NCBI RefSeq assembly: GCF_055900595.2
Contig: NZ_CM148325.1
Strand: one strand, 5' to 3'
DNA: 64,000 nucleotides
Positions 57,049 to 58,478 of the stretch are shown here, one piece after another. Both the position numbers and the translations under genes were made by a program. Each line of letters begins with the position of its first letter. Position 1 is the stretch's first letter. Under the pieces are notes generated by a model. That model was not told the DNA's origin, ran no database searches, and worked only from the letters and a program-made list of their open reading frames with translations.

Positions 57049-57234
57049 GTGAAAAGTGCAGACGTGATCGCCATCCTGAAGCAGCATGGCTGGGAACATA
57101 TTCGAACCCGTGGTAGTCATCATCAGTTCCGCCACCCTGTCCATCCGGGTCTGGTGACGGTTCCGCACCCTAAAAAAGATATTAAGCCCGGTACGCTGGC
57201 GCAAATTGGGCGTCAGGCTGGTTTAACATTTTAA
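57049..57234 (+). CDS. hicA: HicA-family toxin (61 aa), GTG start
   Basis: MKSADVIAILKQHGWEHIRTRGSHHQFRHPVHPGLVTVPHPKKDIKPGTLAQIGRQAGL: HicA-like GSHH...GL(V)TVP(H)PKKD signature; TATAAT at 57025-57030 upstream. Confidence 0.8.
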   Translation: MKSADVIAILKQHGWEHIRTRGSHHQFRHPVHPGLVTVPHPKKDIKPGTLAQIGRQAGLTF

Positions 57235-57250
57235 AATTTCAGGAGGCAAT

Positions 57251-57661
57251 ATGTTTTATCCCGCCTATATCCACAGTGATCCTGACGGCAGCGCCAGCGG
57301 TTTTTTCCCTGATGTTCCAGGCTGTTATTTTGCTGGTGATACGCTGGACAACGCTTTCCAGGATGCGCGAAGTGCACTGGTCGCGCACTTCGAAACCTTA
57401 TGCGAGATGAATGAAGAGTTGCCGCTTCCAGGCTCTGTGGAAACACATCTGGTCCAGCGTGCGCAGGACTTTATTGGCGGGCAATGGTTGCTGGTGGATA
57501 TCAATATGAATCAGTTCGAAGGTCGGGCTGAACGTATCAATATTACGATGCCGAAAAGATTACTGAACAAGATTGATACCTACGTGCGCAATAACCCAGA
57601 CTACGCCAACAGAAGTGCGTTTCTGGCGGAAGCTGCCCGGCGTGTATTGCCGGGCGTTTAA
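57251..57661 (+). CDS. hicB: HicB-family antitoxin (136 aa) with C-terminal ribbon-helix-helix
   Basis: Starts 17 nt after hicA; C-terminal INITMPKRLLNKIDTYVRNNPDYANRSAFLAEAARRVL is RHH/CopG-like. Confidence 0.75.
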   Translation: MFYPAYIHSDPDGSASGFFPDVPGCYFAGDTLDNAFQDARSALVAHFETLCEMNEELPLPGSVETHLVQRAQDFIGGQWLLVDINMNQFEGRAERINITMPKRLLNKIDTYVRNNPDYANRSAFLAEAARRVLPGV

Positions 57662-58041
57662 TCTCGCGTTTCGATGGTGAGCGGGCGGACCAGGCTGTAC
57701 AGCCACAGACCAAAACAAGCGATGGTGCCAATCACCACGGTGAGGAACACACTGACTGACAGGCCTGCAAGCAATCCCGCAGGCAGGGCCAGCAGGCCGT
57801 GGATCACGGTGTCGTTCCATCTCACCTGATCGTAGCCAAACATGCCTAAAACGCCGCAAACCAGACCGTAAATCACCATTGGTGTTCCGAGGCCAATCAG
57901 CAATAAACGGTAGATAATTGAAGGTTTAATACGCTTTATCTGTACTGTGGATGTTTTACTGGGGTTATTCATTAGTTTGGTCAATAGTTCCATTATTTCA
58001 ATATGATAAACCTCGACCTGTTGAAAAGCCAGGTAGCACAC
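57658..58041 (-). CDS. small hydrophobic membrane protein of unknown function (111-127 aa depending on start)
   Basis: Track ORF; two or three predicted TM segments (IIYRLLLIGLGTPMVIYGLVCGVLGMF, GLLALPAGLLAGLSVSVFLTVVIGTIACFGLWLY); 3' end overlaps hicB stop by 4 nt (convergent). Start uncertain. Confidence 0.45.
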   Translation of the reverse strand: MCYLAFQQVEVYHIEIMELLTKLMNNPSKTSTVQIKRIKPSIIYRLLLIGLGTPMVIYGLVCGVLGMFGYDQVRWNDTVIHGLLALPAGLLAGLSVSVFLTVVIGTIACFGLWLYSLVRPLTIETRD

Positions 58042-58154
58042 TTCAGAAAGTATATAAAAAACAATATGTCGTTATATAAATAAGGAAATTGCACTGCATC
58101 ATGGCATTTCATAATATGCGTTAATTGTTCTTTTTTATATTCTCTGAGGGAAAT

Positions 58155-58478
58155 ATGTTCCTGGACTATTTTGCACTGGGAGTGCTTATTTTTGTATTTC
58201 TGGTGATATTCTATGGGATTATTATTTTACATGATATTCCCTACCTGATTGCTAAAAAACGTAATCATCCTCATGCCGACGCCATTCATGTTGCTGGTTG
58301 GGTGAGTCTTTTTACGCTGCATGTTATCTGGCCATTTTTGTGGATTTGGGCCACGCTTTACCGCCCGGAGCGGGGATGGGGAATGCAAAACCATGACTCC
58401 TCCGTTGTGCAACTACAACAGCGTATTGCCGGGCTGGAGAAACAGCTCGCCGACATCAAATCCTCTTCTGCCGAGTAA
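58155..58478 (+). CDS. yiaW: DUF3302-family small inner membrane protein YiaW (paralog of YibI)
   Basis: Start at [46 protein letters not shown]-terminal ~75 aa nearly identical to YibI. Confidence 0.85.

What the first reader, a model, noticed from the sequence alone, without database searches (positions are those of the whole stretch)
57658..58041. Unassigned small membrane protein gene convergent with and overlapping hicB
A 111-127-aa strongly hydrophobic ORF on the minus strand ends 4 nt inside the hicB stop and starts about 110 nt from the yiaW start. I do not recognise it. It could be a third partner of the TA module, a cargo gene that came in with it, or a spurious ORF.
Basis: seen in the sequence. 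Interest (0 to 1): 0.45.

Follow-up and report, generated by a model that had tools for sequence, protein, structure and literature searches.

The report
Conserved small two-pass membrane protein gene
The open reading frame is a real, old gene for a 104-residue inner-membrane protein of unknown function that was at this locus before the hicAB toxin-antitoxin pair, is not part of that pair, and is broken or deleted in about 99.5% of complete E. coli genomes, K-12 included.

Summary
A hydrophobic minus-strand ORF ends at 57658 and shares 4 nt (TTAA) with the hicB stop.

It is a genuine gene.
- Same-length orthologues (103-105 aa, 52-63% identical) occur in Citrobacter, Kluyvera and Franconibacter.
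- dN/dS is 0.09-0.13 within Escherichia and 0.02-0.05 within Kluyvera.
- Homology puts the start at ATG 57972 (104 aa), not at the 111- or 127-aa starts.

It is not a hicAB partner or cargo.
- Orthologues sit tail-to-tail with aldB in genera that lack hicAB.
- 505 of 5426 complete E. coli genomes carry hicAB here, but only 15 of them keep the intact ORF. Another 12 have the intact ORF without hicAB.
- About 4240 genomes, K-12 included, carry a 171-bp in-frame deletion between imperfect 11-bp direct repeats. This leaves a 47-codon remnant.

The protein is predicted to cross the membrane twice, with both ends in the cytoplasm and a conserved periplasmic hairpin. It belongs to a wide family (272 clusters at 50% identity) with no Pfam, NCBIfam, PHROG, PADLOC or PDB match. 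The closest named relatives are proteins that UniProt labels DUF3566 (CofA, a PBP1a cofactor). The Pfam model and my profile tests did not confirm membership.

Function is inferred only. Interest is modest.

The parts
57658..57972 (-). CDS of a 104-aa predicted two-pass inner-membrane protein (stop codon 57658-57660, start ATG 57972-57970). Sequence: MNNPSKTSTVQIKRIKPSIIYRLLLIGLGTPMVIYGLVCGVLGMFGYDQVRWNDTVIHGLLALPAGLLAGLSVSVFLTVVIGTIACFGLWLYSLVRPLTIETRD
   Evidence: ORF. RefSeq annotates the same 104-aa CDS in an identical locus. Orthologues of 103-105 aa align end to end. dN/dS is 0.02-0.24 wherever dS is measurable. AF2 model has pLDDT 81.8, helices 17-44 and 59-95, and a beta-hairpin at 51-56.
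57973..58041 (-). Probably 5' leader and promoter DNA rather than coding sequence.
   Evidence: The extension is not conserved as protein outside Escherichia, and Kluyvera has a stop 3 codons upstream of the conserved Met. The region holds a conserved TTTATCAT block (58010-58003, a -10-like TATCAT on the minus strand, which also reads TATGAT on the + strand). It also overlaps the position of the published K-12 yiaWV promoter, CAGACA-17-TATAAA in K-12 and CAGGTA-17-TATAAA at 58030-58058 here (PMC3946193).
57634..57656 (.). GC-rich hairpin (GCCCGGC-N7-GCCGGGC) 2 nt past the ORF stop, lying inside the last 8 codons of hicB. Probable transcript-end structure for the ORF, for hicAB, or for both.
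   Evidence: Terminator-like site. Every orthologue has a GC-rich hairpin just after its stop codon, between it and aldB.
57689..57699 (+). Left copy (ACCAGGCTGTA) of the imperfect 11-bp direct repeat at which most E. coli have deleted 171 bp of this gene.
   Evidence: Window versus K-12 alignment. Junction sequences: the K-12 junction ACCAGGCCGTA is a chimera of the two copies.
57860..57870 (+). Right copy (ACCAGACCGTA) of the same direct repeat. The copies are 171 bp (57 codons) apart.
58050..58092 (.). AT-rich block conserved across genera in the divergent ORF-yiaW intergenic region (GCAATT..TATTTATATAACGACATAT..TTTTTTATATAC on the minus strand). Candidate shared regulatory site.
   Evidence: Alignment of the intergenic region from Escherichia and three Citrobacter-like loci. 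The K-12 spacer is listed as bound by RpoD holoenzyme and marked 'HNS' in the genomic SELEX table.
57049..57661 (+). hicA (57049-57234) and hicB (57251-57661). These are neighbours, not part of the gene's own system.
   Evidence: RefSeq annotation of an identical locus. Absent from the orthologous loci of other genera.

Best explanation
**What it is.** This is a genuine, vertically inherited chromosomal gene for a 104-residue inner-membrane protein. It is independent of hicAB.

**History of the locus.**
- Ancestral arrangement in Enterobacteriaceae: aldB and this gene tail-to-tail, separated only by a hairpin.
- In the Escherichia lineage hicAB was inserted into that spacer, so that the hicB stop came to overlap the gene's stop.
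- In most E. coli, hicAB later decayed to a hicB 3' remnant plus a REP element.
- The membrane-protein gene itself lost 57 codons through a deletion between 11-bp direct repeats.
- The window carries the rare intact form of both.

**Predicted architecture (shown by prediction, not experiment).**
- A basic cytoplasmic N-terminus.
- TM1 at about residues 17-44.
- A short periplasmic beta-hairpin carrying the conserved G-[YF]-D-x-V-[KR]-W-N...H-G motif.
- TM2 at about residues 59-95, ending in the conserved G-L-W-x-Y-S-x-x-R-P-L motif.
- A short cytoplasmic tail.

**Mechanism (inferred, about 0.3-0.35 likely).** The protein self-associates through its glycine-rich helices and acts as a small accessory or modulator subunit. 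It would dock onto the transmembrane or periplasmic part of a larger envelope protein, as the two-pass DUF3566 protein CofA does with PBP1a in Corynebacterium. It would have no enzymatic activity of its own.

**How sure I am.** I put about 0.9 on 'real gene, two-pass membrane protein, not a hicAB component'. The figure in the confidence field covers the whole statement, mechanism included.
For: **Real gene.**
- Orthologues of 103-105 aa in Escherichia whittamii, Escherichia sp. E1V33, Citrobacter amalonaticus, three Kluyvera species and Franconibacter.
- dN/dS is 0.09-0.13 at dS 0.23-0.28 within Escherichia, and 0.016-0.05 at dS 0.26-0.35 within Kluyvera.
- A wider family of 272 clusters at 50% identity with E<=1e-3, matching over the full length.

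**Independence from hicAB.** Synteny tables and E. coli genome counts.

**History.**
- K-12 and E. whittamii keep the last ~27 codons of hicB.
- REP-like sequence replaces the rest of hicAB.
- The deletion runs exactly from repeat to repeat, 171 bp, in frame.

**Architecture.**
- AF2 with 32 sequences gives pLDDT 81.8.
- Hydropathy and charge: N-terminus 4 K/R and no D/E, loop net -1.
- Invariant or near-invariant G27, G40, G46, N53, G59, G88, L89, W90 and S93 across 32 divergent members.

**Self-association hint.** One relative, P0127, is a tandem duplication of the whole domain in a single chain.

**CofA analogy.**
- Foldseek on AFDB50 returns many proteins that UniProt names 'DUF3566 domain-containing protein', at TM-score 0.7-0.85 and 22-35% identity.
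- UniRef gives the Franconibacter orthologue the same name.
- CofA is a two-TM protein made almost entirely of DUF3566 and binds the TM domain of PBP1a (PMC7205459).
Against: **No expression data.** I found none, and no paper mentions the protein.

**DUF3566 link not confirmed at sequence level.**
- The Pfam DUF3566 model does not match the window protein even at E<=10, nor any of 107 family members at E<=0.1. It matches my M. tuberculosis control at 1.5e-42.
- hhalign aligns only the N-terminal 20-38 columns, at E 0.01-0.1 and probability below 4%.
- HMM scores against real DUF3566 sequences are no better than against reversed ones.

**No recurrent partner.** Distant family members have no recurring neighbour gene that would name a partner.

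**Dispensable.** 99.5% of complete E. coli genomes lack an intact copy.

**Weak translation signal.** The E. coli allele lacks the AGGA Shine-Dalgarno sequence seen in the Citrobacter orthologues.
Confidence: 0.5

Rival explanations
1. A stand-alone pore-forming or membrane-perturbing small protein (holin-like, type-I-toxin-like, or a small channel). It would work by homo-oligomerising in the inner membrane rather than by binding a partner.
For: It has two TM helices with both ends in the cytoplasm and a charged C-tail, a layout that class II holins also have by general knowledge. The helices carry small-xxx-small motifs, and one relative is a tandem-duplicated chain, both pointing to oligomers. 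Distant family members occur as lone genes in variable, integron-like arrays without a fixed neighbour. One orthologue has a faint PADLOC '2TM effector' match at E=0.06, which is not significant.
Against: There is no significant PHROG, PADLOC or BFVD match. The enterobacterial copies are syntenic chromosomal genes under strong purifying selection, not in prophages. No antitoxin or antisense partner is evident. The conserved periplasmic loop motif suggests specific recognition rather than bulk membrane damage.
Confidence: 0.2
2. A gene being lost, with no present function in E. coli. On this reading the intact allele in the window is an ancestral survivor that has not yet been hit.
For: Only 27 of 5426 complete genomes keep it intact. 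About 4240 carry the 171-bp deletion and about 1150 have no match at all. The E. coli allele has lost the AGGA ribosome-binding motif present in Citrobacter. The K-12 spacer is marked 'HNS' in the genomic SELEX table.
Against: dN/dS between the intact E. coli allele and the alleles of E. whittamii and Escherichia sp. E1V33 is 0.09-0.13, so the intact lineages were under constraint until recently. This rival concerns dispensability in E. coli, not what the protein does where it is kept.
Confidence: 0.15
3. Third component or cargo of the hicAB toxin-antitoxin module.
For: Only adjacency and the 4-nt stop-codon overlap in this window and in 14 other complete genomes.
Against: The orientation is convergent. 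Orthologues occur in three other genera without hicAB. About 490 E. coli genomes have hicAB at this locus without the intact ORF, and 12 have the intact ORF without hicAB.
Confidence: 0.03
4. A spurious ORF: a chance open frame on the strand opposite to nothing in particular.
For: In shuffles, 1.5% of sequences with this composition give an open frame as long. There is no Pfam or NCBIfam hit.
Against: Frame, length and motifs are conserved at 52-63% identity across genera while synonymous sites are saturated. dN/dS is well below 1. There are 272 homologous clusters.
Confidence: 0.02

Closest known systems
DUF3566 (Pfam PF12089) / CofA of Corynebacterium glutamicum and Rv0007 of M. tuberculosis
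   Same: Both are domains of about 100-120 residues made of two TM helices. In both, a basic cytoplasmic segment of the form h-x-h-[RK]-R-[IL]-x-P-x-S-x-h-K precedes TM1, and a short conserved tail follows TM2. UniProt names several Foldseek-matched relatives of the window protein (TM-score 0.7-0.85), and the Franconibacter orthologue, 'DUF3566 domain-containing protein'. CofA acts as a small membrane cofactor that binds the TM domain of PBP1a, which is the model I adopt for the mechanism.
   Different: The Pfam model does not detect the window protein or any of 107 relatives, although it detects the control. Profile-profile and HMM tests are at noise level apart from the N-terminal motif. The periplasmic loop is shorter. 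Actinobacterial cofA lies downstream of gyrA near oriC, whereas this gene lies next to aldB. No interaction data exist for this protein.
RefSeq hypothetical proteins WP_001064341.1 and WP_001064340.1 (intact, 104 aa) and WP_001066080.1 (K-12-type 47-aa remnant)
   Same: WP_001064341.1 is the identical protein, annotated at the same position in 15 complete E. coli genomes. The 47-aa entry is the same gene after the 171-bp deletion.
   Different: These entries carry no name, family or function. NC_000913.3 lists no CDS or other shown feature there at all.
Small membrane proteins encoded beside membrane-fusion proteins (YiaW/DUF3302 with YiaV; by my own recollection, AaeX with AaeA)
   Same: It is small and hydrophobic, and it is transcribed divergently from yiaW-yiaV in Escherichia and most Citrobacter loci.
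   Different: It has no sequence relation to DUF3302. It persists where yiaWV is absent, in Kluyvera, Franconibacter, C. amalonaticus S646 and L011. It is therefore not an obligate part of that system.

Membership tests
HicAB toxin-antitoxin module (as a third component or cargo) | Co-occurs with hicA/hicB across genomes | tested here: not met
   Orthologues in Citrobacter, Kluyvera and Franconibacter have no hicAB. In E. coli, 505 genomes have hicAB here, 15 of them with the intact ORF, and 12 have the intact ORF without hicAB.
HicAB toxin-antitoxin module (as a third component or cargo) | Same operon or same strand as hicAB | tested here: not met
   The orientation is convergent. Only the stop codons overlap.
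DUF3566 / CofA (PF12089) | Match to the Pfam PF12089 model | tested here: not met
   No match for the window protein at E<=10. None of 107 relatives matches at E<=0.1. Positive control: the Rv0007 C-terminal domain matches at 1.5e-42. The precomputed Pfam field is empty for all relatives.
DUF3566 / CofA (PF12089) | Profile-profile similarity to bona fide DUF3566 sequences | tested here: inconclusive
   hhalign aligns only the N-terminal motif: E=0.098 with probability 0.6%, and E=0.012 with probability 3.7%. HMM scores are no better than for reversed sequences. My DUF3566 profile was mycobacterial only (Neff 1.8), so the test had low power.
DUF3566 / CofA (PF12089) | Two TM helices forming almost the whole domain, N-terminus in the cytoplasm | tested here: met
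   AF2 model. Hydropathy and the positive-inside charge count. This is prediction only.
DUF3566 / CofA (PF12089) | Structural similarity to proteins labelled DUF3566 | tested here: met
   Foldseek on AFDB50 gives at least 15 hits named DUF3566 with E from 1.6e-6 to 1e-2 and TM-score 0.7-0.85. The label is UniProt's, and I could not reproduce it with the Pfam model.
DUF3566 / CofA (PF12089) | Binds the TM domain of a class A PBP | not testable with these tools
   Needs two-hybrid or pull-down experiments. Shown only for the Corynebacterineae proteins.
Holins / phage small membrane proteins | Sequence or fold match to phage families, or a prophage context | tested here: not met
   PHROGs gave no hit with E<0.04. 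The best BFVD Foldseek hit has E=0.76. The context is syntenic chromosome.
Anti-phage defence effectors (PADLOC) | Match to a PADLOC model | tested here: not met
   The only hit is a '2TM effector' match at E=0.06 for one orthologue. The window protein has none.
Protein-coding gene (versus chance ORF) | Purifying selection and conserved frame and length in related genomes | tested here: met
Protein-coding gene (versus chance ORF) | Evidence of transcription and translation | not testable with these tools
   No expression data are available here. The supplement text of one K-12 Ribo-seq paper and a full-text search for the peptide and accessions returned nothing. The other Ribo-seq paper had no supplement text held.

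The most novel reading that the evidence does not exclude
The gene would be the enterobacterial representative of a protein family that is effectively undescribed. The family has no Pfam, NCBIfam or PDB entry by the tests run here. Its members are two-pass membrane proteins of about 100 residues, found in Gammaproteobacteria and in uncultured environmental bacteria, and some appear to travel as integron-type cassettes. On this reading the family is a remote proteobacterial counterpart of the actinobacterial PBP cofactor CofA/DUF3566. The 47-residue single-TM remnant fixed in most E. coli, including K-12, could also still be made as a microprotein.
Probability: 0.2. Interest if true: 0.5.

Novelty: new member of a known kind. 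Interest (0 to 1): 0.3.

Why it matters
- It removes a false lead. The ORF is not a third component of a HicAB module, so this locus is not a new TA architecture.
- It gives a name-less RefSeq 'hypothetical protein' a start codon, a predicted topology, conserved motifs and a family of at least 272 clusters.
- It shows that the unannotated aldB-yiaW spacer of K-12 holds two gene relics: a hicB tail and a 57-codon in-frame deletion of this gene.
- If the CofA analogy held, it would point to small-membrane-protein cofactors of envelope enzymes in Proteobacteria. That remains inference.

Tried and rejected
- **Family libraries.** NCBIfam, Pfam, PHROGs and PADLOC, run on the window protein and on up to 107 relatives, gave no significant family.
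- **Solved structures.** PDB by sequence profile and by Foldseek gave nothing. BFVD gave nothing.
- **Link to DUF3566.** I recalled the Rv0007 C-terminal domain from memory and checked it: it is 100% identical to M. tuberculosis entries and matches Pfam at 1.5e-42. I then ran hhalign and HMM tests with reversed-sequence controls. The only signal was the N-terminal motif, so I do not claim membership.
- **A K-12 gene name for the remnant.** ysaE appears only in a list of verified new small ORFs that gives no position. ysaC and ysaD lie between yiaS and yiaT. NC_000913.3 lists no CDS or other shown feature between yiaW and aldB.
- **Expression evidence.** One K-12 Ribo-seq paper had no supplement text held, and the other had no hit for the coordinates or the peptide. 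A full-text search for the peptide and accessions returned 0 papers.
- **Guilt by association.** Seven contexts of distant relatives showed no recurrent neighbour. A LysR gene (L023/L024) and a MipA-family gene (L027) each recur once beside the enterobacterial yiaU/yiaT, which I judged too thin to use.
- **Minus-strand sigma-70 promoter.** The consensus scan found none.
- **Not attempted.** dN/dS on the 47-codon remnant within E. coli, because there are too few sites for any power.

Full report
**1. The observation**

The window around the finding reads aldB (to 56771, +), hicA (57049-57234, +), hicB (57251-57661, +), the ORF (57658-58041, -), then yiaW (58155-58478, +), yiaV (+) and yiaU (-). 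An essentially identical locus (99.9% over the 1501 bases compared) in E. coli MFDS1022581 is annotated the same way by RefSeq. There the ORF is a 104-aa 'hypothetical protein', WP_001064341.1.

- The hicB stop (57659-57661) and the ORF stop (57658-57660 on the other strand) share the tetranucleotide TTAA, so the 4-nt overlap is real.
- GTG 58041 is 114 nt from the yiaW ATG.
- The protein is strongly hydrophobic (GRAVY +0.80).

**2. It is a real gene, and the start is ATG 57972**

A word-indexed search of 5.8 billion proteins found full-length relatives of 104-105 aa at 53-63% identity. A scan of one genome per GTDB species placed relatives in Escherichia whittamii, Escherichia sp. E1V33, Citrobacter amalonaticus (two strains) and three Kluyvera species. 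Franconibacter has one too.

All of these begin at the position of the window's ATG 57972. In Kluyvera a stop codon lies three codons upstream of that Met. The 111- and 127-aa versions are therefore unlikely.

Nei-Gojobori dN/dS values:

| Comparison | dN/dS | dS |
|---|---|---|
| Window allele vs other Escherichia species | 0.09-0.13 | 0.23-0.28 |
| Among Kluyvera species | 0.016-0.05 | 0.26-0.35 |
| Between genera (where computable) | at or below about 0.3, up to 0.44 for Franconibacter vs Kluyvera | saturated |

The gene evolves much faster than its neighbours: 52-63% protein identity against 93-98% for AldB and about 90% for YiaW and YiaV. It is still clearly constrained. The 'spurious ORF' reading is refuted.

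**3. It is not part of hicAB**

In every orthologous locus the gene lies tail-to-tail with aldB. Outside Escherichia tblastn finds no hicA or hicB.

- yiaW-yiaV are usually on the other side.
- They are absent in Kluyvera, Franconibacter, C. amalonaticus S646 and one metagenomic contig.
- aldB is thus the only constant neighbour.

Counts in 5426 complete E. coli genomes:

| State | Genomes |
|---|---|
| hicAB present at this locus | 505 |
| ORF intact | 27 |
| ORF intact with hicAB | 15 |
| ORF intact without hicAB | 12 |
| 171-bp-deleted form of the ORF | about 4240 |

In two examples of the hicAB-positive genomes, a GH127 gene and an MFS gene follow hicB directly. In the first, homology to the window stops about 25 nt into the 3' end of the ORF.

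K-12 and E. whittamii retain only the last ~27 codons of hicB. In K-12 the rest is replaced by REP-like sequence. The simplest history has three steps:

- The membrane-protein gene is ancestral.
- hicAB was inserted between it and aldB in the Escherichia lineage.
- hicAB was later lost many times.

The same spacer also holds an HSDR_N 'type I restriction endonuclease' gene in some genomes, so it is an insertion hot spot.

**4. The K-12 state**

K-12 has an in-frame deletion of exactly 171 bp (57 codons, residues 39-95). It lies between two imperfect 11-bp direct repeats, ACCAGGCTGTA at 57689 and ACCAGACCGTA at 57860. The K-12 junction, ACCAGGCCGTA, is a chimera of the two.

The result is a 47-codon frame (MNNSSKTSTVQIKRIKPSIIYRLLLIGLGSPMVIYGLV|RPLTIETRD) at NC_000913.3 3754611-3754754. 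PGAP annotates it as WP_001066080.1. NC_000913.3 does not annotate it. It is not ysaC, ysaD or, as far as I could tell, ysaE.

**5. What the protein looks like**

With a 32-sequence alignment AlphaFold2 gives mean pLDDT 81.8. The model has two long helices (17-44 and 59-95) joined by a short beta-hairpin (51-56).

- The N-terminal 16 residues carry four K/R and no acidic residue.
- The loop is net -1.
- The C-tail is RPLTIETRD.

By the positive-inside rule both ends are cytoplasmic and the loop is periplasmic.

Across 32 members at about 30% identity the conserved positions are mostly glycines in the helices (G27, G40, G46, G59, G88). The others are N53, also conserved at 90% or more, with W52 beside it in the loop, and G-L-W-x-Y-S-x-x-R-P-L at the cytoplasmic end of TM2.

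**6. Family**

A profile search of 1.84 billion representative proteins found 272 clusters at E<=1e-3 and 82 at E<=1e-10. Nearly all are 95-125 aa and match over the full length.

- One member is a tandem duplication of the domain (P0127).
- Several members carry N- or C-terminal extensions.
- Neighbourhoods of distant members vary.
- In Psychrosphaera the gene sits in an array of small same-strand ORFs beside a divergent tyrosine recombinase, with an IS110 nearby.
- One identical 106-aa protein occurs in at least four different neighbourhoods. This looks like integron-cassette behaviour.

None of 107 members matches any Pfam family convincingly. NCBIfam, PHROGs, PADLOC, PDB sequences, PDB folds and BFVD folds also gave nothing.

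**7. Closest known family**

Foldseek against AFDB50 returned, after the orthologues, many proteins that UniProt names 'DUF3566 domain-containing protein'. They come from Mannheimia, Cedecea, Kluyvera genomosp. 2 and others, at TM-score 0.7-0.85 and 22-35% identity. UniRef gives the Franconibacter orthologue the same name.

DUF3566 is the domain of CofA, a two-TM protein of Corynebacterium glutamicum. CofA binds the transmembrane domain of PBP1a and is needed for its proper function. In Actinobacteria the gene follows gyrA (PMC7205459; PMC4255298).

I tested membership as follows.

- The Pfam model finds the Rv0007 domain at 1.5e-42. I had recalled that sequence from memory, and it proved 100% identical to M. 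tuberculosis entries.
- The same model finds none of my 107 family members.
- hhalign aligns only the N-terminal h-x-h-[RK]-R-h-x-P-x-S-x-h-K motif, at probability below 4%.
- HMM scores against real DUF3566 sequences are no better than against reversed ones.

So the window protein resembles DUF3566 in architecture and in one motif, and relatives carry that label in UniProt. Membership was not demonstrated here.

**8. Mechanism**

- **Shown:** conservation, synteny and allele history.
- **Predicted:** topology and fold.
- **Inferred:** function.

I commit to a small accessory or modulator subunit that self-associates through its glycine-rich helices and docks on a larger envelope protein, CofA-like, at about 0.3-0.35.

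The main rival is a stand-alone oligomeric pore or membrane-active protein, at about 0.2. Lone occurrence in cassette arrays favours it. The lack of any phage or defence match and the conserved periplasmic motif argue against it.

The gene is dispensable in E. coli, since 99.5% of complete genomes lack an intact copy. In K-12 the spacer is bound by RpoD holoenzyme and marked 'HNS' in the genomic SELEX table. The E. coli allele lacks the AGGA ribosome-binding motif of the Citrobacter orthologues. Low expression is therefore plausible.

**9. Verdict**

This is a real but ordinary uncharacterised small membrane-protein gene, already present in RefSeq as a hypothetical protein. It is unrelated to the TA module beside it.

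- **Novelty:** new member of a known kind.
- **Interest:** 0.3.

Noticed in passing
window 57049-57661; K-12 locus L002 1630-1795: The hicAB pair here is intact in only 505 of 5426 complete E. coli genomes. K-12 keeps just the last ~21-27 codons of hicB, with a 12-bp deletion, next to a REP-like element. K-12 therefore has an unannotated hicB relic downstream of aldB.
   Followed up: partly
L029 3006-8361 (Psychrosphaera aquimarina); L032-L034: Distant family members sit in integron-like arrays: a divergent tyrosine recombinase, then small same-strand ORFs, with an IS110 nearby. One identical 106-aa protein (P0204) is found in at least four different neighbourhoods, including beside TIR/SEFIR and GIY-YIG genes. 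This suggests cassette mobility.
   Followed up: no
L007 6640-7713; L028 949-2028: An HSDR_N-domain gene annotated 'type I restriction endonuclease' is inserted in the same spacer in a Citrobacter-like contig and in some E. coli, between aldB and the ORF in the former and between aldB and hicAB in the latter. Together with hicAB and REP, this marks the spacer as an insertion hot spot.
   Followed up: no
window 58050-58092 and 58003-58010: Two blocks in the ORF-yiaW divergent intergenic region are conserved across genera. One is AT-rich with an ATAT-N6-ATAT dyad. The other is TTTATCAT, which reads as a -10 box on either strand. They may be a shared regulatory site, perhaps for the adjacent LysR-type regulator YiaU.
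   Followed up: partly
L013 5742-5923 (Escherichia sp. E1V33): hicA matches in two overlapping pieces in different frames, which looks like a frameshifted toxin gene. hicB and the membrane-protein gene are intact there.
   Followed up: no
L003 3525-5978; L028 3234-5592: In at least two E. coli with hicAB here, yiaW, yiaV and, within the stretch read, yiaU and yiaT are missing. A GH127 glycoside hydrolase gene and an MFS transporter gene follow hicB directly. In a Citrobacter-like contig (L007) the same two genes lie beyond yiaT, so this looks like a deletion of the intervening block.
   Followed up: partly
window 57049: hicA is called from a GTG start in the window (61 aa). NCBIfam gave no family for HicA and only a weak NikR-type match (E=0.07) for HicB. 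The TA assignment therefore rests on the RefSeq product names.
   Followed up: no
proteins P0127 and P0151: P0127 (261 aa) contains two copies of the family domain in tandem. P0151 (244 aa) has the domain followed by a soluble extension of about 140 residues. These natural fusions could guide oligomer and partner hypotheses.
   Followed up: no
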